Part shown: positions 1,913 to 51,070 of the stretch, one piece after another
How the letters are laid out: the number at the start of each line of letters is the position of its first letter
How positions within the stretch are numbered: the stretch's first letter is position 1
Translations under genes and position numbers: made by a program
From: Promethearchaeota archaeon
Lineage (GTDB): Archaea > Asgardarchaeota > Lokiarchaeia > Sigyniarchaeales > SOKP01
Assembly: GCA_016839915.1 (NCBI GenBank)
Contig: JAEOTH010000028.1
Coordinates: 15,433-79,432 of the forward strand
DNA length: 64,000 nucleotides
Reading direction: 5' to 3'
Notes under the pieces: model-generated
Database searches by the model: none
What the model was told of the DNA's origin: nothing
Seen by the model: only the letters and a program-made list of their open reading frames with translations

Positions 1913-2118
1913 ATGACCGAAAATAAATTCACTCGAACTAAATGTCCACAGTGCGGAAATGAGAATCCACGTAAGCTTCACGAGGAGCCAGACAAAAATA
2001 ATGTGCTATACTACAGTATAGGTAAGGTTATTTCAACCTACCGCTGAAGCAGGGCACTCCTGTCTATGTTAAGAATATGAAGTGTGGTGGATGTGGAAAT
2101 GTTTTTAAAAAGGATTAA
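1913..2118 (+). CDS. small four-Cys zinc-ribbon protein, interrupted by a 29-nt intron (join 1913..2019,2049..2118)
   Basis: Exon 1 MTENKFTRTKCPQCGNENPRKLHEEPDKNNVLYYS, exon 2 (-1 frame) ..QGTPVYVKNMKCGGCGNVFKKD*; joined length 177 nt = 58 aa + stop. Confidence 0.6.
2020..2048 (+). other. putative bulge-helix-bulge (BHB) intron in mRNA, 29 nt
   Basis: Central helix CAGT(2014-2017)/GCTG(2043-2046), bulges ATA(2018-2020) and AAG(2047-2049), inner hairpin GGTA(A)GGTT-ATTTC-AACCTACC; removal restores frame. Confidence 0.7.
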
Positions 2119-12587: not shown

Positions 12588-13155
12588 GTGAGTGAAAAAG
12601 GAAAAATAATTGTTAAGGCTCTTGTGACTGGTGGGAGTGTATAACTTTAATGATCGTTTCGATTAGACCCCAAATGCATCAGGAGGGCCGCCTATTACAT
12701 AAAGCATATCGCTTTTGTCAAATTATGGTAAAGGCCCCTCCGTAGGACCCACAGGTATAAATATTAAAGACGTAGTAGATGAAATCAACAAGCAGACGCA
12801 GGTGTTTAGGGGACTAACAGTTCCAGTCAGAATTGAATGTGATCCCGAAACAAAAGAATTTGAAATTTTTATTGAAACCCCTTCTACAGCTTCACTACTA
12901 TTAAAAGAAGTTGGTACTGAAAAAGGGAGTTCAATTGCTTCAGAACAAAAAATTGGAAATTTAACTCTTGATCAAATTCAAAACGTAGTTGATCAAAAAC
13001 GAGAAAAATTCTTGGAGAAAACATATAAAGCATCAGTAAAAACAGTGTTAGGCACAGCTTTATCAGTAGGACTAACCGTAGAAGGAGAAGATCCAAGGAT
13101 CATCCAGAAACGAATTGATAATGGAGATTATGATGATAAAATCAGGGGTGAATAA
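12588..13155 (+). CDS. rpl11: 50S ribosomal protein L11 (uL11), interrupted by two short introns (exons about 12588..12637, 12675..12695, 12732..13155)
   Basis: GTG 6 nt after GGTGA. Spliced product [44 protein letters not shown].. is colinear with the archaeal L11 N-terminus; ORF track only shows truncated 12715..13155. Confidence 0.8.
12638..12674 (+). other. putative BHB intron 1 of rpl11, 37 nt
   Basis: Central helix TGGG(12632-12635)/CCCA(12669-12672) perfect, bulges AGT and AAT; contains in-frame TAA; removal shifts frame by +1 as required. Confidence 0.75.
12696..12731 (+). other. putative intron 2 of rpl11 (33-39 nt, boundaries uncertain)
   Basis: In-frame TAA at 12700-12702 between GGPPI and [11 protein letters not shown]; inner hairpin AAAGC-ATATC-GCTTT; several alternative BHB-like registers. 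Confidence 0.45.
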
Positions 13156-15466: not shown

Positions 15467-16969
15467 ATGATGACTGGAAAGTTTCTTAAATTTTTCTCTC
15501 CGTTTGTAAAGGCAATGCCAGAACTAAAACAGCCACAACGTGAAGTCACCTTTAAAGAGAAATTTATTTGGACAGCACTGGTCTTAATTATTTACTTGAT
15601 TATGAGTAATATTCCCTTATATGGAATAAATACCTCAGAATCAACTGACTATTTTTACTGGTTAAGAGTTATTCTTGCTAGTCAAAGAGGAATGTTAACT
15701 GAACTAGGTATAGGCCCAATAGTCACATCTGGTCTTATTATGCAATTACTTCTAGGTGCAAGAATTATCAATGTAAATATGGCCGATCCTTACGATAGAG
15801 CAATGTTTAGTGGAGCTCAAAAAGTGCTCGCAATATTTTTAACAATCTTCAATGGTATTGCTTATATTATGGGAGGCGCATTTGGAAGTGTAGCTGAATT
15901 AGGTATTGCAAATATATTTTTCATTTTCTTTCAATTATTGTTTGCCGGAATAATTATCATATTATTAGATGAACTCCTCCAAAAGGGTTGGGGCCTTGGA
16001 AGTGGAGTTTCCTTATTCATAGCTGCAGGTGTTGCAGGTCAGATTTTTTGGAATGCTTTCAGTTTTATTCCAACTCCTTCTGTCGCCGATGGGGGAGACG
16101 GTCTACCTAGAGGAATTATCATTGCTATTTTTACTGCTTTATTTGATAACGATCCTAATACAACACTAGGGACAATATTTTTGCGGCAAGGTAACTACCC
16201 CTCATTATTAGGAATTATAACAACTATAGGAATCCTTTTTGTGGTAGTCTGGTTCGAATCTACGCGAGTTGAGATACCACTTGCATATCGAGGAAGTCGC
16301 GGCTTTAAAAGTAAATATCCAATGAAATTACTTTATGTTTCCAATATTCCTGTAATTTTGGTTAATGCCTTGTATGCAAATGTGCTATTCTTTGGGCAAT
16401 TAATTGCGGGACCTGGTTCTACATTGCGTGTTACTAACGGTGGACTTATTCCGGATTTTTGGATTGATCTTATTGGAAAATTTAGGGTAGAAACAGGAAC
16501 AGGTCCTGTGTCAGGTACTCAGCTTGTTCCAATAGGTGGTTTGGTTTATTTACTTACTCCACCATTAGGACTTGATGAATTAGTAGCAAGTCCTCTTAGA
16601 GCGATTATTTATTTAGTAATATTTATATTTCTTTGTGTGATGCTCGGCCGTGTCTGGGTCGAAGTCAGTGGCTTAGCGCCCCGCGACATATCCCAACAGA
16701 TAATTGACTCAAAAATGCAAGTTCCTGGATTTCGTAGTTCTAGAAAAGTAATAGAGAAAATTCTTAAACGCTATATCCCGACATTGGTAATCTTAAATGG
16801 TATCATAATTGCAGTGATGAGTTTCACAGCAGATACATTGGGGGCATTAAGTTCTGGAACAGGATTATTGATTGCAATAGGCATAATCCACCAATATGGG
16901 GAAACTATCGCTAAAGAATTAGCTGCGAGTCAGTATCCTGGGATGAGAGCAATGCTTGGAATGGATTGA
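15467..16969 (+). CDS. secY: preprotein translocase subunit SecY
   Basis: 10-TM pattern, ..SNIPLYGI.., ILASQRGMLTELGIGPIVTSGLIMQLL. Confidence 0.9.
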   Translation: MMTGKFLKFFSPFVKAMPELKQPQREVTFKEKFIWTALVLIIYLIMSNIPLYGINTSESTDYFYWLRVILASQRGMLTELGIGPIVTSGLIMQLLLGARIINVNMADPYDRAMFSGAQKVLAIFLTIFNGIAYIMGGAFGSVAELGIANIFFIFFQLLFAGIIIILLDELLQKGWGLGSGVSLFIAAGVAGQIFWNAFSFIPTPSVADGGDGLPRGIIIAIFTALFDNDPNTTLGTIFLRQGNYPSLLGIITTIGILFVVVWFESTRVEIPLAYRGSRGFKSKYPMKLLYVSNIPVILVNALYANVLFFGQLIAGPGSTLRVTNGGLIPDFWIDLIGKFRVETGTGPVSGTQLVPIGGLVYLLTPPLGLDELVASPLRAIIYLVIFIFLCVMLGRVWVEVSGLAPRDISQQIIDSKMQVPGFRSSRKVIEKILKRYIPTLVILNGIIIAVMSFTADTLGALSSGTGLLIAIGIIHQYGETIAKELAASQYPGMRAMLGMD

Positions 16970-17107
16970 CATTTTTTGAGCGCCTTCCAAATAAAAATAT
17001 ACTGTTAAAATTTCTCAAATTATAAATAGAGACATAAATATCGATTGTTATCAAGAAAATTATCATATGAAAACTTTATAATAATTTCAATATAAATAAA
17101 TATAGAG

Positions 17108-17710
17108 ATGTGGTTATTAATATTTCAGAATCCCTTTTTAGATCTCATTAGCAACCCTCCTGGTTCAATGTTATTTGTTTTAATTTTAGCAATAACGACT
17201 GCTTTAATTAGTACATTATTAACAAAATTATTAGTTGACACTGAAGAGATAAATCGCAAACAGAAGCAAATTAAAGCTCATGAAGAAGAGAAGGAAAAAA
17301 TAATTGAATTAGCAGAGATCGATCCTGAGCGCTATAAAAAGGCTCGAAAAAGATGGGAACGCAAACAAGCAATGTATAAACAAACTCAACAAAGAATGTC
17401 TCTTCAGAGAATGAAACCAACTTGTATAACATTTCTTCCAATGATTATTATATTTGGAATTATAAATACGTTTTTAGGGGGCAAACCTGTAGCATTATCT
17501 CCAATGAATGCTAACGATGTTCCTTTAATCGGTGCGTTTATCGCAGTAGGTAAAGTATGGATAAATTTTACTGCTTGGTATTTCCTATGCTCTTTAGGAA
17601 TTAATACACTTGTCCAAAGGCTACTTAAAATACAAACTCAAGCTTCAGGCGGTATGGGAGGAATGTTTGCTGGGCAAAAAGCAAAAGCTTTAGAATTCCC
17701 AGACGCATAA
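17108..17710 (+). CDS. DUF106 / EMC3-TMCO1-YidC-like membrane protein
   Basis: TM, K/E-rich coiled coil, two TMs; conserved archaeal position next to secY. Confidence 0.55.
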   Translation: MWLLIFQNPFLDLISNPPGSMLFVLILAITTALISTLLTKLLVDTEEINRKQKQIKAHEEEKEKIIELAEIDPERYKKARKRWERKQAMYKQTQQRMSLQRMKPTCITFLPMIIIFGIINTFLGGKPVALSPMNANDVPLIGAFIAVGKVWINFTAWYFLCSLGINTLVQRLLKIQTQASGGMGGMFAGQKAKALEFPDA

Positions 17711-17731
17711 GATGATTGTTGTATAAAAAAA

Positions 17732-17864
17732 TGCGCAACGGGAGGGATTTATTCCCATAAGAAGTAATTTCTTATAATTTGAACCCCCGAGTGCATTCAC
17801 ACACTGGCTTTCTGGGTGATTTACCACTCCAAGCCAGCGCCGTACCGGGCTAGGCAACCGTTGC
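17732..17864 (-). tRNA. tRNA-Ser (GGA) with two BHB introns
   Basis: Acceptor GCAACGG/CCGTTGC, discriminator G, anticodon stem CTGGC/GCCAG, mature loop TTGGAGA, long variable arm, T arm GGGGG-TTCAAAT-CCCTC. 17-nt intron at 37/38 (17810-17826; helix TTGG/CCAG) and 30-nt intron in T loop (17749-17778; helix GTTC/GAAT); mature 84 nt. Confidence 0.8.
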
Positions 17865-17922
17865 ATTTTTTACAAAAAATAATACAAAGTTAAATGATTA
17901 TTTAATATTTAATTCAATTAGT

Positions 17923-18210
17923 TTATTTTATTGGGATAGATACAGGTTCTTTCATCTTTTTTTCTAATTTTGCTTTTTTAATTGCAGCTTCTACTTGTTC
18001 ATGTGGAGCTCCCTTTTTAATTTCAATAACCTCTGGAGTAGGTTCAATATGATTAAAATTTGCTCTTCTTCTTCGGACTTTTAACCCATCAATTAGTAAG
18101 TAGTTTTTATCGATTACATCAACAATAACACAATAATGTCCTGCTTCTCTTCCCATTGTTTTTACACATAATCTTCCAATATCATATACGCTCATATAAT
18201 TTGTCACCAA
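17923..18210 (-). CDS. rpl14e: 50S ribosomal protein L14e
   Basis: IGRLCVKTMGREAGHYCVIVDVID..VRRRRANFNHIEPT. Confidence 0.85.
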   Translation of the reverse strand: MVTNYMSVYDIGRLCVKTMGREAGHYCVIVDVIDKNYLLIDGLKVRRRRANFNHIEPTPEVIEIKKGAPHEQVEAAIKKAKLEKKMKEPVSIPIK

Positions 18211-21014: not shown

Positions 21015-22055
21015 TTATAGTAACTTTATTATAAAATGTGTTTTCTCAATTGAAACTTGGTAATTTCTATCCAGAAAGAATTTGATCAATTCAAGATTAG
21101 TCCTAGTATGATTTGTAACCTCAAGCACTTTTATTTTTGATGGTTCTTTAATAGTTGCCATGAAAGGAATTAATTGATCACTTAAATAATTATCAACCGG
21201 AATCTCTTTTTTGATATATGATATAATTTTATTAGCTGCTATAATTCCAAGGTCTTCTGATGTAATATTTTTTTCTCCGAGTATTGTTCCTGAAGAAATA
21301 ATTGCACCTGTATCTGAGAAAGCCCATAAAGAAAGGCCGACTCCTGGACTTAATGAATTTACATATTTAAAATTAATTCTAACTTCAATTCCTAAATTCT
21401 TATTTAGTTGAAATTCTGCGGATTTTTTAATTCTTTCACACACTTTTTTATTAATTAAATGATTGGTGCTGATAATCTCACCCTGAATTAATTCAACTTT
21501 TCCTAATTTAGTTAAATTAATTGGTTTAATTCTTTTAGGAGGATATATTGTGCATTTAGCAACCGCCCCTCCTTTAGGATAGAAACCATGTTTCAGAATA
21601 TCAATTTCAATGTTAAAACCATGATTCCTAAATATATTGTATGCTACGTGTTGAAGATAATTAAGACTAGGAGCCCATTTTCCAAATGTTCCACCTCCCC
21701 GTATAAAAATTTCAATTTTTTCTGGTTTATTAAAATTTAAACATGCAATTAGGATAGGTTGGAGTAATAATCCAATACTCCCTGCTGTTCCAATTTCAGC
21801 TTCAATATTACTTTTTATTGATTGTTTAGGGGTTAGTGTGATCTCTTTTGTCCCTACTCGACATTCTGACAATGTACTATTTGTTAATCTTGATAGGGTT
21901 TTTAAGCTCATTAAATGCTGGAGTCTCAATCCAGGCTTAGGTCTGTTTGCTCTTATATTTCTAATTCGAATAGGGCGTTGGAATAAAATTGAAAATCCTG
22001 CTCCAATCCTCAGGATTGCACCTCCTCCTTCCCCAAAGGAACCATCAATATCCAA
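21015..22055 (-). CDS. rtcA: RNA 3'-terminal phosphate cyclase
   Basis: DGSFGEGGGAILRIGAGFSILFQRPIRIRNIRANRPKPGLRLQHL. Confidence 0.85.
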   Translation of the reverse strand: MDIDGSFGEGGGAILRIGAGFSILFQRPIRIRNIRANRPKPGLRLQHLMSLKTLSRLTNSTLSECRVGTKEITLTPKQSIKSNIEAEIGTAGSIGLLLQPILIACLNFNKPEKIEIFIRGGGTFGKWAPSLNYLQHVAYNIFRNHGFNIEIDILKHGFYPKGGAVAKCTIYPPKRIKPINLTKLGKVELIQGEIISTNHLINKKVCERIKKSAEFQLNKNLGIEVRINFKYVNSLSPGVGLSLWAFSDTGAIISSGTILGEKNITSEDLGIIAANKIISYIKKEIPVDNYLSDQLIPFMATIKEPSKIKVLEVTNHTRTNLELIKFFLDRNYQVSIEKTHFIIKLL

Positions 22056-26114: not shown

Positions 26115-26286
26115 GGGCCATTTGCTTAGCTATTATCTAGACTTTCTCTAGATATCTGAAATGGTTAACAGGTTTAGAAGCTTGGTCAACAAGCGCAGGT
26201 CTTATAAATGACCATCGGACATACAATAAAAAATTGTCCGAAAAAGTAAAAACCTGAGATCCGGGGTTCAAATCCCCGATGGCCCA
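26115..26286 (+). tRNA. tRNA-Ile (UAU) with two introns
   Basis: Acceptor GGGCCAT/ATGGCCC, discriminator A, T arm CGGGG-TTCAAAT-CCCCG, anticodon stem CAGGT/ACCTG, mature loop CTTATAA. 54-nt D-loop intron 26130-26183 (helix GCTT/AAGC, bulges AGC/TTG) and 44-nt anticodon-loop intron 26208-26251 (helix TTAT/GTAA); mature 74 nt. Confidence 0.7.
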
Positions 26287-26408
26287 TATTTTTATTTTTA
26301 TTGATCGTGAAACATCTATTTTACGTTTTTTCACATATTTCTAAATAATACCTCAATATATGTTGAGGTAATATTATTGGATCAGATAATTTCAATAGAT
26401 AATTTTTG

Positions 26409-27208: not shown

Positions 27209-28582
27209 CTATTGGACTATTTGATTATACGCTTTTTCAAATCTCTCAACAGCAGATAATATATCTTTTTCTGTTACTCCAATTGCAGCATTCATTACAA
27301 TATAGGGAGTTGGATAATTAGTACAACATGTTCCAAACATTTTTTCTTTTGGATTATATACTCTTGGTCCAGTTACTCTTAAATTATAGAGAGCTCCACC
27401 AAGAGCATATAATTGTTCATCTTTTATATTTTTTAAAGATAAAGCTACTGCAACTGGATTATATATATCAAGAATTCTTTCATTTAGTTTTTCAGCAATT
27501 TCTTTGAGTTTTGTTTCAAGAATTTTACGATTTTGCTGTTGTTCTTCAATTAGTTGTTGATAACCAGTAATACCTAAAGCTAACATAGAAATTAAGAAAT
27601 TCACAATTGGAGTTGCTGAGGCACGACCTGCATATGCTTGGCTGATTTTTTTTATATTCTCTTTTGATGGAGATGCAATTACAGCCCCTCCAACTGGTGT
27701 AAGGAAATTTTTATCCGTTGACTGAATTATCGCATCAACTCTACCCGCATCAATTCCAGATCGTATTAATTGCATCCATTTAGGAGCTTGAACACCATAT
27801 GCGTTTATAATAATATGAACGAGATTATTTTGTTGAGCAAATTTACTTATTTCTTTAATATCATCATTTTCACGAGGTGGAAAAAAACTAGTAATGGAAA
27901 TGACAGCAAAACAATCATCGTCTAATTCTTTTTTTATATCTTCAATAGGAATCCTAACGGCATCCCCAAAAATCTGCCCAGGGACAATTTTTGCTTTAAA
28001 ACCTATTAAATCAATTGATTTTAAGAGTGATTTATGATCAATTTGAGGAACTAAAACAGTACGTTTAGAAATCGAATTAATGTTGCTTTGATCTGGTTTT
28101 AAAGCTCCTAAAGTTAATGATAATGACATTCCAGTACATAATGGTACAATAATTGCGTCTTTTATGTTAGGTAATCCAGTATATTTCATTATATTTCGAG
28201 CTAAATAGTTAGAAAGCTCATACATTATTGAACCTCCGGGTGCTTTTGGTTGAGCAGCGGTTAAAAAACCACTTCTTCCTACACCATGACAAAATCCAGC
28301 TGATGTTTTTAATTGTAGTTTGGAAGCAATTCTCGCTTCTCTTTCACCTACTCGCGCGGCATTATTATCTTTATCTGTATCCATATTTGAAAGCGTTTGG
28401 AGAAGGAAATCAATTTGAGCATCAGTCCAAGGTTCTTTAGGAACTGATCTTTGTTCTAGAAGAGTTTTTATAGGTTTAAGGAACTCACTCAAAACCAGTT
28501 GACCTCTAATTAAAATATTCTCTGGAATATTTAAATTTTCAAAAAATTCTATTATTTTATTAAAATCAACCATTATTAACAC
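27209..28582 (-). CDS. spcS: O-phosphoseryl-tRNA(Sec) selenium transferase (SepSecS)
   Basis: ..AARVGEREARIAS..FCHGVGRSG.., PLP-Lys motif QSTDKNFLTPVGG; adjacent to tRNA-Sec. Confidence 0.85.
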   Translation of the reverse strand: MLIMVDFNKIIEFFENLNIPENILIRGQLVLSEFLKPIKTLLEQRSVPKEPWTDAQIDFLLQTLSNMDTDKDNNAARVGEREARIASKLQLKTSAGFCHGVGRSGFLTAAQPKAPGGSIMYELSNYLARNIMKYTGLPNIKDAIIVPLCTGMSLSLTLGALKPDQSNINSISKRTVLVPQIDHKSLLKSIDLIGFKAKIVPGQIFGDAVRIPIEDIKKELDDDCFAVISITSFFPPRENDDIKEISKFAQQNNLVHIIINAYGVQAPKWMQLIRSGIDAGRVDAIIQSTDKNFLTPVGGAVIASPSKENIKKISQAYAGRASATPIVNFLISMLALGITGYQQLIEEQQQNRKILETKLKEIAEKLNERILDIYNPVAVALSLKNIKDEQLYALGGALYNLRVTGPRVYNPKEKMFGTCCTNYPTPYIVMNAAIGVTEKDILSAVERFEKAYNQIVQ

Positions 28583-28596
28583 TTATAATAATAATT

Positions 28597-28689
28597 TGGC
28601 GGCCCTCGAGGGGAATCGAACCCCTATCCCTCCGCAGGATAACTGGGTTTGAAGCCCAGCGTCAGAGACCACTCCAACCGCCAAGGGCC
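28597..28689 (-). tRNA. tRNA-Sec (UCA)
   Basis: 93 nt: 9-bp acceptor, 7-bp D stem with 4-nt loop TGGT, anticodon loop CTTCAAA, long variable arm, 4-bp T stem GGGG-TTCGATT-CCCC, discriminator G and encoded CCA. Confidence 0.9.
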
Positions 28690-32739: not shown

Positions 32740-34158
32740 ATGGAAATTGAAAAGAAAATCCCGATTCACATCGGTTTATTTGGGCATATTGACTCTGGGA
32801 AGACAAAAATAGCAGAAGTACTTAGCGAGATTATTTCCACAGCAGGGATTGATGCACATCCTCAAAGTAAAGAGAGAGGTATTACCATTGATTTAGGTTT
32901 TTCCAGTTTTTTACTTGATAAATATCTAGTAACTCTAGTAGATGGTCCTGGTCATGCTGATTTAATAAAAATCAGTGCTTCCTCTGTTGAAATTATTGAT
33001 TGTGCATTAATTGTTATTGATATTAATAAGGGTCCTCAAGTTCAAACAGGAGAACATCTGATCATGGTCGAGGCTCTGAACCTTGATACAATTATTGTTG
33101 TTCTCAATAAAATTGATCTATTTATTGGTAATATCGAGGAAGAAATAAAAAAAATAAGAAAATTTTTCGGTTCAACTTCTTATGGTTATAATGTGCCTAT
33201 TTTTGCAGTTTCTGCAAAAGATAAGAAAGGATTTGAAGAATTAAAGAATGGTATTTTAGAATCAATTAATTCTTTAAAAATTGAGAGAAAACCAACAGAA
33301 GATCTTATAATTCCTGTTGATCATCATTTTCCTATAAAGGGTATAGGCGCAATATTAACTGGTACCATTTTAAGTGGTTCATTAACTTTAAATCAAAATT
33401 TGGAAATTTTACCTCTAAATACCTCCGGTAGAGTTAAAAACATTCAGATTTTTCACCAAGATGTTGATTCAGCAAAATCAGGTGATAGAGTTGGTATTAA
33501 TATAAAGGGAATTGAATTGAAGAAAGTTTATCGAGGTTGTTATGCTACATCTAATCCCAATGCTTTTGAATTTTGTAATATAATCGAGGTAGAAGTAAAG
33601 AATCATGTACTGTTCAAACCTAAAACAAGCTTTGGTACTCAACTTCATATTACTATTGGAATGTTAACCATCACTGGAAATATTTATCCTTTCTATGAAT
33701 TAGATGGAAAAAGAATTCAAACAACAATTTCAAATAAAGATCAAGGATTTAAAGCTATAATTTTATTTAAAGAGAAGGTTTTAATCAGGAAGAAGAATGC
33801 ATTTATGTTACTCAGTCGATTAGATTTACCTCCAACTACTTTAAGAATATTAGGATCAGCAGAGTTATTGAAAATTTTTAGGGAGCCCCCTATATTTTAC
33901 AAGTATAAAACTAAAAAAGGAAGTATCAAAAATCCTAATCATCCTGAGGGGATTATATGTACAGGTTTAGCGCAAAGCCCTACTGGAGCGAAGAAACTTA
34001 TTGGGAAACTATTAGACTCTCCCTTTACTAAAATATTAAGTACATTTGGTACTAAAGGTGCTGTTATAGTGGGTATTAAAGACCAAAATAAAATAGTAAA
34101 GAAAGGAGATCCCGTATTTCTCAAAGAATTAAGAAGTTTTCAACTAAAAAACATTTAA
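32740..34158 (+). CDS. selB: selenocysteine-specific elongation factor SelB
   Basis: GLFGHIDSGKT, DGPGHADLI, NKIDL, translation-factor beta-barrel domains; no EF-1alpha-type context; near tRNA-Sec/SepSecS. Confidence 0.8.
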   Translation: MEIEKKIPIHIGLFGHIDSGKTKIAEVLSEIISTAGIDAHPQSKERGITIDLGFSSFLLDKYLVTLVDGPGHADLIKISASSVEIIDCALIVIDINKGPQVQTGEHLIMVEALNLDTIIVVLNKIDLFIGNIEEEIKKIRKFFGSTSYGYNVPIFAVSAKDKKGFEELKNGILESINSLKIERKPTEDLIIPVDHHFPIKGIGAILTGTILSGSLTLNQNLEILPLNTSGRVKNIQIFHQDVDSAKSGDRVGINIKGIELKKVYRGCYATSNPNAFEFCNIIEVEVKNHVLFKPKTSFGTQLHITIGMLTITGNIYPFYELDGKRIQTTISNKDQGFKAIILFKEKVLIRKKNAFMLLSRLDLPPTTLRILGSAELLKIFREPPIFYKYKTKKGSIKNPNHPEGIICTGLAQSPTGAKKLIGKLLDSPFTKILSTFGTKGAVIVGIKDQNKIVKKGDPVFLKELRSFQLKNI

Positions 34159-47203: not shown

Positions 47204-48079
47204 TTATTCATTTTCTTCCTTTTCTTCCTTTTCTTCATTTTCTTCTTTTTCTTCATTAGGAGTTAAAGAGATCTCAGAAATATCTTGTTCATCAACATCA
47301 TCGAGGAGTTTTTTATCTTCCTCACTTATTACTCCTTCTTCCTCTTCAATTATATAATCTGCTTGAGTTTTCGCTAATTTTGCTACTTCCTGTGCTTGAG
47401 CCTTGGTAAGAAGATCCTCTTTGATTTTTATGTCATCACCCATTTTTGTATTGGCTCGCATAATTTTCACTATTATACCTAAAACTCCTGATTTCTGTAT
47501 ACATTGAGCTACACCCTTATCTACGCCTTCTTGTGCCACTTGACCACTTTTTGACATTGTACCAGCGCGAAATATCTGTGTACGAGCTCTTTGGCTAGTT
47601 ACTTTCCCTGAAATGATAATTTCAACTCCCCGAGCCCCTGCATCCATTACCTTTCTTAGGATATAATAACCTGCTCTTCTATAGTGTCTTCCTCTATCTA
47701 AACTATATGCTAACCTTTCTGACATAATCTGCGCATCTAAATCTGGTTCTTGGACCTCCTCAACTTCAATTTGGGGCAATTAGCTTGGTTTTCGATTAGA
47801 AAACAAATTTTCCAGCCCAAATTTTTCTTGGAGGACATCAGTTATCTCTTGAATGCGCTTACCGCCTTTTAGCTAATAAGTCGAAATGACTTCATACTTA
47901 CCAATGACCAGACCTGGTCTTGACGTCTTGAGGGTAATGCGCACTCCAAGAGGTGTTCGTTGTAGTTCCACTCCGGCAAATCCTGCACGGATCAACTCTG
48001 AGCGTAGGTATTCATTTATTTGCATTAGCTTAATTCCTTGCTCTATGAAATTCTTAACAAGAGGCACTTGCTTCACCAA
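47204..48079 (-). CDS. rps3: 30S ribosomal protein S3 (uS3), interrupted by two 30-nt introns (exons 48079..47898, 47867..47809, 47778..47204)
   Basis: ORF track shows two fragments (47873..48079, 47204..47779). Spliced product ..[44 protein letters not shown].. restores the KH GxxG motif and is colinear with archaeal S3; exon sum 816 nt. Confidence 0.85.
47779..47808 (-). other. putative BHB intron B of rps3, 30 nt
   Basis: ATTTGTTTTCTAATCGAAAACCAAGCTAAT; central helix TGGA/GCTA (3 of 4), bulges AAA and ATT, inner hairpin GTTTTC-TAATC-GAAAAC, outer exon-exon helix TTTGGGC/GCCC(C)AAA, in-frame TAA. Confidence 0.7.
47868..47897 (-). other. putative BHB intron A of rps3, 30 nt
   Basis: GTATGAAGTCATTTCGACTTATTAGCTAAA; central helix TGGT/GCTA (two G.U), bulges AAG and AAA, inner hairpin with ATTTC loop, in-frame TAG. 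Confidence 0.7.
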
Positions 48080-48244: not shown

Positions 48245-48655
48245 TCATATTTTTTCTAAAAGAGGAGATAATAAACAAATTAATTCCTGGAGCTCCTTAT
48301 CAATAATATTTACTTCTCCCTCTCCCTCTCTATCTATTGTAAAATTAGTTAATTCAATCAATAACTTGAAGGACCTAACTAATTCTTCTTTTTCTTCATT
48401 ATTAATGTAATCCTTATATTCTAACAAATCATCATGAAATATTGATCTTAACAATGTGTCATAATTTGCTCCTTTATGCTCAAACTCCAAATTGAAGAGA
48501 ATCTTAATATTTCTCTCTAAGTTTTTTAACAGGTGAAGATAATTCCTTACCAAATCGAAATCTCTAAATTCTGGATTATCAGCATTCTTCAAAGAAAACC
48601 TTAATAGATTTAACAATTTATCATAATTCCTTAAAATCCTCTTTGAAGCCAACAT
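48245..48655 (-). CDS. hypothetical helical protein (within insertion between rpl22 and rps3)
   Basis: 136-aa ORF, no family recognised. Confidence 0.35.
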   Translation of the reverse strand: MLASKRILRNYDKLLNLLRFSLKNADNPEFRDFDLVRNYLHLLKNLERNIKILFNLEFEHKGANYDTLLRSIFHDDLLEYKDYINNEEKEELVRSFKLLIELTNFTIDREGEGEVNIIDKELQELICLLSPLLEKI

Positions 48656-48736
48656 AAGTCATTAAAAACATATATGTCTAATCTTAAATAATTAACTAAT
48701 TTTAGCCGAAACAAATTTATAAGAAATAGAAAATAA

Positions 48737-48952
48737 TCAAATTAAGAAATTTGACTTCACAAATCTTACTAAATCATCCCATCTATACCCTGTATAAGTG
48801 TCTAAAAACCGATTCGCATTGCGCTTTAATGAATCTAATGGATAGCCATAATCCTCATGCAATCCTAAATCAATAACAAGCTTACCCATATTATAGTGAT
48901 ACCTACTATTCCCAATTTCTTGGACATGAGAATGAAGCAGCTGAATAGCCAA
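48737..48952 (-). CDS. hypothetical small protein; frame stays open upstream to about 49024
   Basis: 71-aa ORF with TTG start. Confidence 0.3.
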   Translation of the reverse strand: MAIQLLHSHVQEIGNSRYHYNMGKLVIDLGLHEDYGYPLDSLKRNANRFLDTYTGYRWDDLVRFVKSNFLI

Positions 48953-49015
48953 CTCAAAATAATTCTTAACAGGAATATTAAGAGCTTGAAATCTTAAATC
49001 TACAAAGGAAACTCC

Positions 49016-49052
49016 TATATATAGCTATATATATATATACGCGCAATTCGCG
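49016..49052. repeat. (TA)n tract followed by GC-rich hairpin CGCG-CAATT-CGCG
   Basis: tatatatagctatatatatatata then cgcgcaattcgcg, a GC island in AT-rich DNA. Confidence 0.5.
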
Positions 49053-49122
49053 TCGCTTCGTAGAAAGGAAGTCTAAATAGCTTTTTTTGGATTTTGTGGT
49101 AATATCTAATATCTTAATTTTT

Positions 49123-49581
49123 TCAAAGAAGCTTTTCTAAGGATTTTCTCAGCAATTTCACTTGTTCTTCCAAAATTTCTTTCGTTACCATGTCAGTGCT
49201 CTCTTCTGAGAATTCCATTAATATATTGTTGATAATCTCTTCATTTAACTTGCTACTTTTCAAATCAGATTGAACCATCTTATTTATCACTGGTTCTAAA
49301 ATCTTAAAGTTAAGTTCTATTAAGTCGTTACACACTTTCACTCCTTCTTTTGTTAGGCGATACTCTCTTTTATCAGCTCCGGCAATCTGTGGTTTCTTTA
49401 TTAACCATTCCACAAGTTTTTGTTCTTTCAATTTTTTAAGTTTCATATCTAAGGTATGCCGTTTTATATCAGGGAATTTTTCCCTTAGTTTGCTTGAGGT
49501 GGTGTATTTTTCTCCAAATGAAGAGAGAAAAATAAGAAGGTTAATTGTGTCTAGAGTTCCATATAGAATTTTTTTGCTCAT
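49123..49581 (-). CDS. winged-helix (PadR/ArsR-like) transcriptional regulator
   Basis: ..SKLREKFPDIKRHTLDMKLKKLKEQKLVEWL..REYRLTKEG. Confidence 0.5.
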   Translation of the reverse strand: MSKKILYGTLDTINLLIFLSSFGEKYTTSSKLREKFPDIKRHTLDMKLKKLKEQKLVEWLIKKPQIAGADKREYRLTKEGVKVCNDLIELNFKILEPVINKMVQSDLKSSKLNEEIINNILMEFSEESTDMVTKEILEEQVKLLRKSLEKLL

Positions 49582-49989: not shown

Positions 49990-50469
49990 TTAACTTGGGA
50001 ATTCATAAATGACAATTTCTATGTGTGATAAGTGCTTAAATTTTGCAGTACTTCGCCCATGAGCTCGAGGAATGTATCTTTTTATAATTCTTCCCCTATG
50101 TGTTGCGGCGTGAATAATTCTACAAAGATCAATATCTAAACCTTTATATTCTGCGTTTGACTCTGCAGATGCAAGAATTTCATATATTCTAGCGGCTGCT
50201 TTTTGAGGATACCTTCCAGCATACCATTTAAATTGCTTTAAATCATGTTTATGAGCAACTTTTTTCTTATGTCTTCTAAATGGTACTGATTGTTCTAACT
50301 GAATCACTTTTTCAAGAAATTTTTTTGCTTGGTCTACTCTTATTCCCTTAATTACGGCACAAATTTCTCTTGCATGTTTTGGTTTAATCCTTATATCTCT
50401 ACCTGATGCTTTCGCTAACCTATCTGCATCATACTTTTGTTCTGTAAAAGAATAATCCCACGTTGGCAC
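49990..50469 (-). CDS. rpl22: 50S ribosomal protein L22 (uL22)
   Basis: ..ASGRDIRIKPKHAREICAVIKG..VPFRRHKKKVAHK. Confidence 0.9.
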   Translation of the reverse strand: MPTWDYSFTEQKYDADRLAKASGRDIRIKPKHAREICAVIKGIRVDQAKKFLEKVIQLEQSVPFRRHKKKVAHKHDLKQFKWYAGRYPQKAAARIYEILASAESNAEYKGLDIDLCRIIHAATHRGRIIKRYIPRAHGRSTAKFKHLSHIEIVIYEFPS

Positions 50470-50494: not shown

Positions 50495-51070
50495 TTATTT
50501 CAATGGAACATATTTTGAACTTCTTGTGGCTCCAATTCCAGGTGATCCGTGTTGTACACGCTTTCTTGTAAGAGAGAACTCTCCAAGATAGTGTCCAATC
50601 ATTTCAGGTTTTATTTCAACAATCTCGAATATTCTTCCGTTATATACACCGATTTTGAGCCCCACCATTTCAGGAAAGATTAACATGTCTCTTACATGTG
50701 TTCTTGTAAGAAGATCCTTACCTCTCTTTTTAGCTCGATATGCTCGTCTTAACCGTTCAAGTAATTTTTTTTGTCTCGGAGGTAAACCTCGTTTTAATGA
50801 TCGTCTTGCTCTAGCTGGCAATAATTGTATAAATTGATCCATATTCATTTTCTTTAATTCTTCTAAGATATAACCTCTATATTTGAATCTTAATCTATCT
50901 AACTCTGCTTCTGTGTCTAATTCCTTTGTTTCCTTGATATCTTCTTTCAATTCTTTCCCTGTTTCGGTTTCAATCTCTTTCTCTGGATCTATATCTTTTT
51001 CTAAATCATTCTGAAGTTCTTCTTCCATTTCTTCTGATTCCTTATCATCAGATTGTTCTTCAGGAGCCAT
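50495..51070 (-). CDS. rps19: 30S ribosomal protein S19 (uS19) with acidic N-terminal extension
   Basis: ..[47 protein letters not shown]; first ~55 aa D/E/K-rich. Confidence 0.9.

What the first reader, a model, noticed from the sequence alone, without database searches (positions are those of the whole stretch)
12588..12740. Ribosomal protein L11 gene split into three exons with a 21-nt micro-exon
- The N-terminus [17 protein letters not shown] (GTG at 12588) stops at TAA 12642.
- The conserved ASGGPPI segment is in the +1 frame.
- After another TAA (12700), [11 protein letters not shown].. continues.
- Intron 1 has a perfect helix TGGG/CCCA with bulges AGT and AAT. Removing 12638-12674 (37 nt) gives ..[10 protein letters not shown].. 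with exactly the consensus GG-x4-GPP spacing.
- Intron 2 is ambiguous. There are four candidate solutions:
  - 12696-12731 (36 nt; helix GCCT/TGGT, 3 of 4 pairs; product [11 protein letters not shown] is colinear with consensus).
  - 12693-12731 (39 nt; GCCG/TGGT).
  - 12698-12730 (33 nt; CTAT/ATGG).
  - 12701-12733 (33 nt; TTAC/GTAA).
- All four remove the stop codon.
Basis: seen in the sequence. Interest (0 to 1): 0.85.

Follow-up and report, generated by a model that had tools for sequence, protein, structure and literature searches.

The report
Mini-introns splitting an archaeal ribosomal-protein gene
The gene for ribosomal protein L11 in this Asgard (Lokiarchaeia-type) archaeon is interrupted by two tiny introns of the tRNA-splicing type, and the same kind of intron also splits two other protein genes in the window, although introns in archaeal protein genes were thought to be almost non-existent.

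Summary
rpl11 (12588-13155, +) is broken by a 37-nt insert (12638-12674) and a 36-nt insert (12696-12731), which leaves a 21-nt micro-exon (12675-12695). Removing both gives a 164-aa L11 that is 87-92% identical, end to end, to the uninterrupted L11 of many Promethearchaeota.

In 94 related rpl11 loci I found 36 such inserts at four sites within codons 17-34. Every one fits the bulge-helix-bulge (BHB) geometry: a 4-bp helix between two 3-nt bulges, cut after the second bulge base.
- At the register that restores the protein, 28 have 4/4 helix pairs and 8 have 3/4. Other registers give 3% and 19%.
- Compensatory changes and intron-linked exon codon choice (Gly16 = GGG in 14/14 carriers against 6/73 non-carriers) support the pairing.

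The same cut rule, applied before any homologue was seen, predicted the junction residues of three further introns in the window: two in rps3 and one in a zinc-ribbon gene.

The best explanation is splicing by the tRNA-splicing endonuclease and ligase, as for crenarchaeal cbf5. No RNA evidence was available. The papers I could search report no such introns in ribosomal-protein genes or in Asgard archaea.

The parts
12588..12637 (+). rpl11 exon 1: GTG start, codons 1-16 plus the first two bases (AG) of Ser17
   Evidence: Translation [16 protein letters not shown](S) matches the N-terminus of the 164-aa L11 of relatives.
12638..12674 (+). rpl11 intron 1, 37 nt. Central helix TGGG 12632-35 / CCCA 12669-72. 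Bulges AG|T 12636-38 and AA|T 12673-75. Inner helix GTATAA 12639-44 / TTAGAC 12663-68. Hairpin ATC 12653-55 / GAT 12661-63 with loop GTTTC 12656-60.
   Evidence: Found at the same site in 14 loci, with the central helix 100% paired and a compensatory U-A/A-U change.
12675..12695 (+). rpl11 exon 2 (micro-exon, 21 nt): last base of Ser17, A S G G P P, and the first two bases (AT) of Ile24
   Evidence: It encodes the invariant ASGGPP.
12696..12731 (+). rpl11 intron 2, 36 nt. Central helix GCCT 12690-93 / TGGT 12726-29 (3 of 4 pairs). Bulges AT|T 12694-96 and AA|A 12730-32. Outer helix GGGCC 12685-89 / GGCCC 12733-37. Hairpin AAAGC 12701-05 / GCTTT 12711-15 with loop ATATC 12706-10.
   Evidence: Found at the same site in 15 loci. 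The BHB register is 93% paired (0/500 shuffles reach it). The rival exon-exon register is no better than shuffles.
12732..13155 (+). rpl11 exon 3: last base of Ile24 (ATA), then [11 protein letters not shown]... to the TAA stop
47868..47897 (-). rps3 intron A, 30 nt: TGGT AA|G tatgaagtcatttcgacttatta GCTA AA|A. It restores the GKGG (GxxG) motif of the KH domain.
   Evidence: The junction VIGKGGKRIQ is invariant in 12 uninterrupted S3 proteins.
47779..47808 (-). rps3 intron B, 30 nt: TGGA AA|A tttgttttctaatcgaaaaccaa GCTA AT|T. The BHB cut gives ..GLE-M-PQIEV..
   Evidence: All 12 uninterrupted relatives have Met at this position. A simple colinear guess would have given Asn.
2020..2048 (+). 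Intron (29 nt) in a small zinc-ribbon protein gene (1913-2118): CAGT AT|A ggtaaggttatttcaacctacc GCTG AA|G. It joins frame A to frame B.
   Evidence: The predicted junction YYS-M-QGTPVY equals that of 12 uninterrupted homologues. The same intron, with compensatory changes, is present in L102-L106.
26115..26287 (+). tRNA gene (anticodon UAU) with a 45-nt intron in the anticodon loop. A second, non-canonical intron probably follows the 5' acceptor strand; it carries the hairpin ATCTAGA-CTTTC-TCTAGAT (26135-26153).
   Evidence: Rfam tRNA score is 28 bits against a gathering score of 29. ARAGORN missed it. The boundaries of the first intron were not worked out.

Best explanation
rpl11 of this Lokiarchaeia-type (Promethearchaeota) genome carries two mini-introns that are removed from the pre-mRNA by the archaeal tRNA-splicing machinery.

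Mechanism: each intron, together with four exon bases just upstream of its 5' cut, folds into a bulge-helix-bulge motif, a 4-bp helix between two 3-nt bulges on opposite strands. The splicing endonuclease EndA cuts after the second base of each bulge. An RNA ligase (RtcB type) then joins exon 1 (50 nt), the 21-nt micro-exon and exon 3. The result is an mRNA for a normal 164-aa L11.

Form of the motifs: intron 1 is a relaxed motif, with an inner helix but almost no outer helix. Intron 2 is the opposite, with a 5-bp outer helix and an inner hairpin set off by 7 nt.

Shown here: the interruptions, their conservation, the BHB geometry at exactly the protein-restoring register, covariation, and exon codon choice tied to intron presence.

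Inferred: that EndA and a ligase carry out the reaction, and that it happens before translation.
For: 1. The spliced product is colinear with uninterrupted orthologues: 164 aa, 87-92% identity, 100% coverage.
2. Among 94 rpl11 loci there are 36 inserts at four sites, codons 17, 24, 28 and 34. All spliced genes are free of internal stops, and 90 are exactly 495 nt.
3. At the registers that restore the protein (2.2 per insert on average), the central helix has 4/4 pairs in 28 inserts and 3/4 in 8. Other registers within +-8 nt give 4/4 in 3% and >=3/4 in 19%.
4. Covariation at site 1: 97.6% of cells paired, 0/500 shuffles as high, UA:9/AU:3 in the central helix. At site 2: 93.1%, 0/500, with outer-helix pair types AU 6, GC 2, GU 2, UA 1 at synonymous third positions. 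Slid registers give 20-59%.
5. Exon codons depend on the intron. Gly16 = GGG in 14/14 carriers against 6/73 non-carriers (p = 7e-12). Pro22 = CCG in 12/15 against 10/72. Ile24 = ATA in 15/15 against 18/72.
6. The cut rule made three correct predictions before any homologue was seen: GKGG and Met81 in S3 and YYS-M-QG in a zinc-ribbon protein.
7. BHB-constrained folds lie within 1.3-2.4 kcal/mol of the minimum free energy for three of the four window introns tested; for rps3 intron B the constrained fold returned the MFE structure without the BHB, so it tells nothing.
8. From the literature: crenarchaeal cbf5 pre-mRNA introns are 16-44 bp, have relaxed BHB motifs cut between the 2nd and 3rd bulge residues, and were confirmed by cDNA (PMC2738675). 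Asgard archaea have the (alpha-beta)2 EndA with the L1 loop that confers broad specificity (PMC5829648). Asgard tRNA genes are rich in non-canonical introns (PMC11291895), and the window itself holds a multi-intron tRNA.
Against: - There is no RNA-level evidence. No cDNA, transcriptome or peptide data could be examined.
- Thermodynamic folding alone does not single out the BHB. For intron 1 the region is no more stable than shuffles (z = -0.3). For intron 2 the minimum-energy fold uses a different exon-exon register.
- The window's intron 2 has only 3 of 4 central pairs (a U.U mismatch), and neither intron is a strict hBHBh' motif.
- Loose BHB motifs are as common in shuffled sequence as in the window, so the motif by itself proves nothing.
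- EndA and RtcB were not found among the 10 window ORFs tested. Their presence in this genome rests on the literature for the group.
- The covariation counts come from related sequences, so they do not represent independent events.
Confidence: 0.85

Rival explanations
1. The interrupted rpl11 is a pseudogene, or a decaying copy, and a functional L11 is encoded elsewhere.
For: The unspliced reading frame stops after 18 codons. Annotation pipelines call only truncated products of 146 or 150 aa (P0060, P0092). Only 64 kb of this genome can be seen.
Against: - The gene sits in the conserved rpl11-rpl1-rpl10-P1 operon.
- The exons are under strong protein-level constraint. All 28 interrupted loci give stop-free products of the consensus length.
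- The inserts keep compensatory pairing.
- Only one rpl11 locus is in the window, and only one per genome turned up in the 16 GTDB assemblies hit.
Confidence: 0.02
2. The ribosome skips the inserts during translation, by programmed bypassing ('hopping', as in phage T4 gene 60) or by frameshifting, so no RNA splicing is needed.
For: The inserts are short (28-37 nt), contain a hairpin, and have a stop codon soon after the take-off point, which loosely resembles gene 60.
Against: - Bypassing needs matching take-off and landing codons. At site 1 the codon before the gap is AGT and the triplet before the resume point is AAT in the window and most relatives. At site 2 it is ATT against AAA.
- Two of the splice junctions fall inside codons and create residues, Met81 of S3 and Met of the zinc-ribbon protein, that neither flank encodes on its own. 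That fits RNA joining, not hopping.
- The covarying helix pairs exon bases with the 3' end of the insert, in BHB geometry.
Confidence: 0.03
3. The inserts are removed from RNA, but by a mechanism other than EndA plus ligase, for example self-splicing or an unknown ribonucleoprotein.
For: No enzyme was tested. A conserved 5-nt hairpin loop ending in UC, in 31 of 35 distinct intron cores, is not required by any known BHB rule and might be a recognition element for another factor.
Against: - At 28-37 nt the inserts are far too short for group I or II ribozymes. Rfam finds no such family.
- There are no GU..AG ends.
- The geometry that fits every insert is exactly the EndA substrate geometry, with the EndA cut positions.
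Confidence: 0.07
4. The inserts are assembly or sequencing artefacts, or chimeric joins between strains.
For: Most data are metagenome assemblies. One Logan contig (L100) shows an abrupt change of sequence exactly at site 2.
Against: The same inserts, with sequence divergence and compensatory changes, occur in 28 loci from NCBI, JGI and ENA assemblies of different projects.
Confidence: 0.01

Closest known systems
BHB intron in the cbf5 (pseudouridine synthase) pre-mRNA of Crenarchaeota (Watanabe 2002; Yoshinari 2006; Yokobori 2009, PMC2738675)
   Same: - A short intron (cbf5: 16-44 bp; here 28-37 nt) inside a protein-coding region.
- A mostly relaxed bulge-helix-bulge motif, cut between the 2nd and 3rd bulge residues.
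- Patchy gain and loss among relatives.
- A host group with hetero-oligomeric, broad-specificity EndA.
   Different: - Different genes (rpl11, rps3, a zinc-ribbon protein) and a different phylum (Asgard/Promethearchaeota).
- Several introns per gene with a 21-nt micro-exon, and four alternative sites within 18 codons of one gene.
- At least three genes affected within 64 kb.
- A shared hairpin with a 5-nt loop ending in UC.
- cbf5 splicing was confirmed by cDNA. Here it was not.
Non-canonical and multiple tRNA introns of Thermoproteales and Asgard archaea (PMC11291895; PMC5829648)
   Same: - Same predicted enzyme and motif, with relaxed BHB forms and very short exons between introns.
- The window's own tRNA gene has two introns, one of them carrying the same type of hairpin loop.
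   Different: The substrate is an mRNA, so accuracy is set by the reading frame rather than by the tRNA fold, and unspliced transcripts could be translated.
BHB intron in the 5' UTR of HVO_1309 mRNA in Haloferax volcanii (PMC7714728)
   Same: An mRNA processed by EndA at a BHB motif. It was shown in vivo and in vitro.
   Different: That intron lies in the untranslated leader, not in the coding region, and the host is a euryarchaeon with a strict-specificity enzyme.
Unconventional cytoplasmic splicing of HAC1/XBP1 mRNA in eukaryotes (Ire1 endonuclease plus tRNA ligase/RtcB)
   Same: Protein-enzyme splicing of an mRNA at two stem-loop sites, with ligation by the tRNA ligase, which changes the reading frame and the product.
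   Different: A different endonuclease and motif. That system is regulatory and stress-induced, whereas here splicing is presumably constitutive and obligatory.

Membership tests
Archaeal bulge-helix-bulge (EndA-dependent) intron | Central 4-bp helix flanked by two 3-nt bulges on opposite strands | tested here: met
   - Intron 1: TGGG/CCCA, 4/4 pairs.
- Intron 2: GCCT/TGGT, 3/4 in the window and 4/4 in L010, L073, L047, L052, L024, L025 and L085.
- Overall: 28 of 36 inserts have 4/4 and 8 have 3/4.
Archaeal bulge-helix-bulge (EndA-dependent) intron | Cuts after the 2nd base of each bulge give the functional product | tested here: met
   - The BHB register coincides with the protein-restoring register in 36/36 rpl11 inserts.
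- The rule predicted Met81 of S3 and the Met junction of the zinc-ribbon protein before homologues were seen.
- The rule itself is taken from PMC2738675.
Archaeal bulge-helix-bulge (EndA-dependent) intron | Strict form hBHBh': helices on both outer sides of the bulges | tested here: not met
   - Intron 1 has an inner helix but no contiguous outer pairs.
- Intron 2 has a 5-bp outer helix, but its inner hairpin is offset by 7 nt.
- Both are therefore relaxed forms, as are most cbf5 introns.
- Some relatives are strict: L024, L025, L085, L056 and L062.
Archaeal bulge-helix-bulge (EndA-dependent) intron | Base pairing maintained by covariation | tested here: met
   for rpl11 sites 1 and 2, and for the zinc-ribbon intron. 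The rival register is not supported.
Archaeal bulge-helix-bulge (EndA-dependent) intron | Host encodes a broad-specificity EndA and an RtcB-type ligase | not tested
   - Neither was found among the 10 window ORFs scanned. The rest of the genome is not available.
- The literature says Asgard archaea have the (alpha-beta)2 EndA with the L1 loop (PMC5829648).
- An RNA 3'-phosphate cyclase (RtcA) is at 21015-22055.
Archaeal bulge-helix-bulge (EndA-dependent) intron | Spliced RNA, and the excised (often circular) intron, observed | not testable with these tools
   No transcript data are accessible. The only intronless close relative found (L100) differs in its exon sequence, so it is an allele and not a cDNA.
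Programmed translational bypassing (T4 gene 60 type) | Matching take-off and landing codons flanking the skipped segment | tested here: not met
   AGT against AAT at site 1, and ATT against AAA at site 2. Junctions inside codons create residues that neither flank encodes.
Self-splicing group I / group II introns | Ribozyme core of at least several hundred nucleotides, recognisable by a covariance model | tested here: not met
   The inserts are 28-37 nt. The Rfam scan of the window found only tRNA-Sec.
Spliceosomal-type introns | GU...AG termini | tested here: not met
   Intron 1 is TG...AA and intron 2 is TA...AA.

The most novel reading that the evidence does not exclude
These are not isolated oddities. 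They look like members of a spreading family of mini-introns that has colonised protein-coding genes, as well as tRNA genes, across Lokiarchaeia and related Asgard archaea.
- At least seven sites in three protein genes were seen here, and 28 of 94 sampled rpl11 loci are interrupted.
- Very close relatives differ in presence or absence of the introns.
- The introns share a hairpin with a 5-nt loop ending in UC, which points to common descent or a common recognition factor.

If this is right, the closest prokaryotic relatives of eukaryotes routinely splice mRNAs with protein enzymes and must cope with translation of unspliced transcripts. That makes the old question of how intron-bearing genes and coupled translation can coexist directly testable in a prokaryote.
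Probability: 0.55. Interest if true: 0.9.

Novelty: new member of a known kind. Interest (0 to 1): 0.82.

Why it matters
Until now the accepted list of archaeal introns inside protein-coding sequence had one entry, cbf5 in Crenarchaeota. Papers from 2020 and 2025 still cite only that case.

This finding adds essential, highly expressed ribosomal-protein genes, in the archaeal group closest to eukaryotes. They carry multiple introns per gene and a 21-nt micro-exon.

Practical consequence: gene callers truncate these genes. L11 is annotated at 146 or 150 aa, and the zinc-ribbon protein at 42-44 aa. Marker-gene sets and phylogenomic alignments for Asgard archaea therefore contain damaged sequences.

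Biological consequences:
- It offers a natural system for studying how a cell without a nucleus keeps ribosomes off unspliced mRNA.
- It shows how introns gain and lose sites. Carriers and non-carriers differ in the flanking exon codons.
- It raises the question of whether protein-enzyme splicing of mRNAs was already common in the archaeal ancestor of eukaryotes.

Tried and rejected
1. De novo motif scans of the window for BHB motifs, with and without ORF-fusion and hairpin-loop filters. They returned hundreds to tens of thousands of hits. In the two scans that had a shuffle control, one gave 4335 hits against about 3800 in shuffles and the other 807 against about 1400. Motif search is useless in this 30% GC sequence; only homology-guided detection worked.
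2. Minimum-free-energy folding as evidence for the BHB. It was not decisive: z = -0.3 for intron 1, and the MFE of intron 2 uses another register. Covariation rejected that rival register.
3. Searching the window for further copies of the intron sequences. None were found, so they are not a high-identity repeat.
4. Looking for the window's own genome in the public collections. It was not found. The closest records are an ENA contig and two Logan contigs.
5. Treating the Logan contig L100 as a possible spliced cDNA. Rejected, because its exon bases differ at 11 of 30 synonymous positions. It is an intronless allele or a chimera.
6. Looking for EndA or RtcB among the large ORFs. Neither was present there.
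7. Rejected by comparison with relatives.

Full report
**What is there**

The window is a 30% GC archaeal sequence. It contains:
- a cheB-like gene;
- the operon rpl11-rpl1-rpl10(P0)-P1, followed by secY;
- a large ribosomal-protein cluster on the minus strand;
- a selenocysteine set: tRNA-Sec, SepSecS and aSelB.

The best protein matches are all to Promethearchaeota / Lokiarchaeia metagenome-assembled genomes.

At 12588 a GTG opens [18 protein letters not shown], which stops at TAA 12642. ASGGPPI follows in the +1 frame and runs into TAA 12700. [11 protein letters not shown]... continues to the stop at 13155.

**Is it a real gene?**

Joining 12588-12637, 12675-12695 and 12732-13155 gives a 164-aa protein. 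It matches 164-aa L11 proteins of Promethearchaeota over its whole length at 87-92% identity. Most relatives are therefore uninterrupted.

Two database proteins were truncated calls. Their DNA showed why.
- P0060 (146 aa): the contig has both inserts.
- P0092 (150 aa): the genome has insert 1 only.

**Comparative survey**

I fetched 16 loci from GTDB representative genomes and 80 from metagenomes. I aligned 94 rpl11 genes. Twenty-eight loci carry 36 inserts at four sites, all within codons 17-34:

| Site | Position | Loci | Insert length |
|---|---|---|---|
| s1 | inside Ser17 | 14 | 28-37 nt |
| s2 | inside Ile24 | 15 | 30-36 nt |
| s2b | inside Val28 | 3 | 30 nt |
| s3 | inside Asn34 | 4 | 28 nt |

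After removal of the inserts, none of the 94 genes has an internal stop, and 90 are exactly 495 nt. A neighbour-joining tree of the spliced genes shows a patchy distribution of every site. The tree rests on only 495 nt, so it is indicative only. The metagenome scan used peptide patterns that span sites s2 and s3, so the sample is biased against some carriers.

**Test of the BHB model**

The rule from the literature is a 4-bp helix between two 3-nt bulges, with cuts between the 2nd and 3rd bulge residues (PMC2738675).

For each insert I first listed the cut registers that restore the consensus protein. There are 2.2 per insert on average. I then asked whether the helix is present at those registers.
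- It has 4/4 pairs in 28 inserts, 3/4 in 8, and never fewer.
- Other registers within +-8 nt give 4/4 in 3% and >=3/4 in 19%.

Pair counts on alignments:

| Structure tested | Cells paired | Shuffles reaching it | Notable changes |
|---|---|---|---|
| s1, BHB | 97.6% | 0/500 | U-A to A-U in the central helix (TGGG/CCCA against AGGG/CCCT) |
| s2, BHB | 93.1% | 0/500 | outer-helix pair as A-U, G-C, G-U or U-A at two synonymous third positions |
| s2, exon-exon register favoured by minimum-energy folding | 80% | 210/500 | none |

In slid registers of the two BHB structures, 20-59% of cells are paired.

The exons adapt to the intron:

| Codon | Carriers | Non-carriers | p |
|---|---|---|---|
| Gly16 = GGG | 14/14 | 6/73 | 7e-12 |
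| Pro22 = CCG | 12/15 | 10/72 | 1e-6 |
| Ile24 = ATA | 15/15 | 18/72 | 4e-8 |

These counts are not phylogenetically independent. However, the inserts fall into several clearly different sequence families.

**Intron 2 resolved**

- Its helix GCCT/TGGT has 3/4 pairs in the window. It becomes GCCT/AGGT, GCCG/TGGT or ACCT/GGGT (4/4) elsewhere.
- It keeps the invariant Ile.
- It is flanked by the outer helix GGGCC/GGCCC.

**Blind predictions elsewhere in the window**

rps3 on the minus strand is also split.
- Applying the cut rule to TGGT AA|G...GCTA AA|A (47868-47897) restores GKGG.
- Applying it to TGGA AA|A...GCTA AT|T (47779-47808) predicts Glu-Met-Pro. A simple colinear join would give Asn.
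- All 12 uninterrupted relatives examined afterwards have Met there.

A small zinc-ribbon gene (1913-2118) is split between two frames.
- The motif CAGT AT|A...GCTG AA|G (intron 2020-2048, 29 nt) predicts YYS-M-QGTPVY.
- This is exactly what 12 uninterrupted homologues read.
- Five truncated database proteins read into the same intron.
- Their DNA shows the intron with multiple compensatory changes.

The window therefore holds five such introns in three protein genes. It also holds a tRNA gene with two introns that ARAGORN missed.

**Controls and weaknesses**

- Loose BHB motifs are as frequent in shuffled sequence as in the window. The case therefore rests on comparison, not on the motif.
- Minimum-energy folding does not single out the BHB. 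BHB-constrained folds are within 1.3-2.4 kcal/mol of the optimum for three of the four window introns. For rps3 intron B the constraint did not take effect.
- Neither window intron is a strict hBHBh' motif. They are relaxed forms, which need a broad-specificity endonuclease.
- According to PMC5829648, Asgard archaea have the (alpha-beta)2 enzyme with the L1 loop. I could not check this genome.
- No RNA data were available.

**Rivals**

- A pseudogene is excluded by the constraint on the exons and the conserved operon position.
- Ribosomal hopping lacks matching take-off and landing codons. It also cannot create the junction Met codons.
- Ribozymes and spliceosomal introns do not fit the size or the ends.
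- Artefact is excluded by 28 independent loci.

**Unexplained extras**

- In 31 of 35 distinct intron cores, from all seven sites, there is a hairpin capped by a 5-nt loop ending in TC. The loops include ATTTC, ATATC, GTTTC and AATTC. Shuffles give 2.2 +- 1.5. One intron of the window's tRNA has such a hairpin too.
- A Logan contig from a very close relative (L1 protein identical) lacks both rpl11 introns. It is 97.8% identical to the window downstream of site s2. In the 30 nt upstream it differs at 11 positions, all synonymous. This suggests recent gain or loss by recombination with co-conversion of the flanking exon. It rests on 30 nt, however, and could be a chimera.

**Comparison with what is known**

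The mechanism is that of the cbf5 pre-mRNA intron of Crenarchaeota. The differences are the genes, the phylum, the number of introns per gene, the micro-exon, and the number of genes affected.

Papers in the searchable library name only cbf5, plus a 5'-UTR case in Haloferax, as BHB introns in archaeal mRNAs. Searches combining Asgard, Lokiarchaeota or Prometheoarchaeum with intron terms found reports of tRNA introns only. The library lacks most subscription journals, so an existing report cannot be excluded.

**Verdict**

The finding is best filed as new members of the known class of endonuclease-dependent archaeal mRNA introns. There is a good chance that it is the visible tip of a widespread intron population in Asgard protein genes.

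Noticed in passing
window 47779-47897 (-), within rps3 (about 48079-47204): rps3 is split by two 30-nt inserts of the same BHB type, 47868-47897 and 47779-47808. The BHB cut rule predicts the junctions GKGG and Glu-Met-Pro. Both match 12 uninterrupted S3 proteins.
   Followed up: yes
window 1913-2118 (+), intron 2020-2048: A small zinc-ribbon protein gene is split by a 29-nt BHB insert that shifts the frame. The predicted junction YYSMQGTPVY matches the uninterrupted homologues. The same intron, with compensatory changes, is present in at least four other assemblies (L102, L103/L104, L105, L106).
   Followed up: yes
window 26115-26287 (+): A tRNA gene (anticodon UAU) was missed by ARAGORN and scores just below the Rfam gathering score. 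It has a 45-nt intron in the anticodon loop. A second intron probably follows the 5' acceptor strand GGGCCAT; its boundaries were not determined.
   Followed up: partly
all intron cores: window 12656-12660, 12706-12710, 2030-2034, 47883-47887 (-), 47794-47798 (-), 26142-26146, and loci L001-L106: A hairpin with a 5-nt loop ending in TC (ATTTC, ATATC, GTTTC, AATTC and others), usually closed by C-G, occurs in 31 of 35 distinct intron cores from seven sites in three genes. Shuffles give about 2. No known BHB rule requires it.
   Followed up: partly
L100 1-30 (Logan SRR25582598) against window 12630-12740: A close relative has an identical L1 protein, and its rpl11 is 97.8% identical downstream of site s2. 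It has no introns at sites 1 and 2, and it differs at 11 of the 30 preceding exon bases, all synonymous. This may be recombinational gain or loss with co-conversion, or a chimeric contig.
   Followed up: partly
window 27209-28689 (-) and 32740-34158 (+): A selenocysteine gene set: SepSecS, the adjacent tRNA-Sec (28597-28689) and the archaeal SelB. This is consistent with a Lokiarchaeia-type genome.
   Followed up: partly
window 21015-22055 (-): An RNA 3'-terminal phosphate cyclase (RtcA). This enzyme makes the 2',3'-cyclic phosphate ends used by RtcB-type ligases. No link to the introns was tested.
   Followed up: no
window 48245-49581 (-): Two ORFs that do not look like ribosomal proteins (136 and 152 aa) sit between rpl22 (49990-50469) and rps3, inside the ribosomal-protein cluster. 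The S19 gene (50495-51070) has a long acidic N-terminal extension.
   Followed up: no
window 17710-17923: An intergenic stretch in a locally GC-richer region (35% for 16001-18000), with no long ORF and no Rfam hit at gathering score. It could hold an unrecognised RNA gene.
   Followed up: no
P0060, P0092, P0281, P0283, P0288, P0290, P0292 (public annotations): Public gene calls for the interrupted genes are truncated: L11 at 146 or 150 aa, and the zinc-ribbon protein at 42-44 aa. They are deposited as if complete. This affects marker-gene sets for Asgard archaea.
   Followed up: partly
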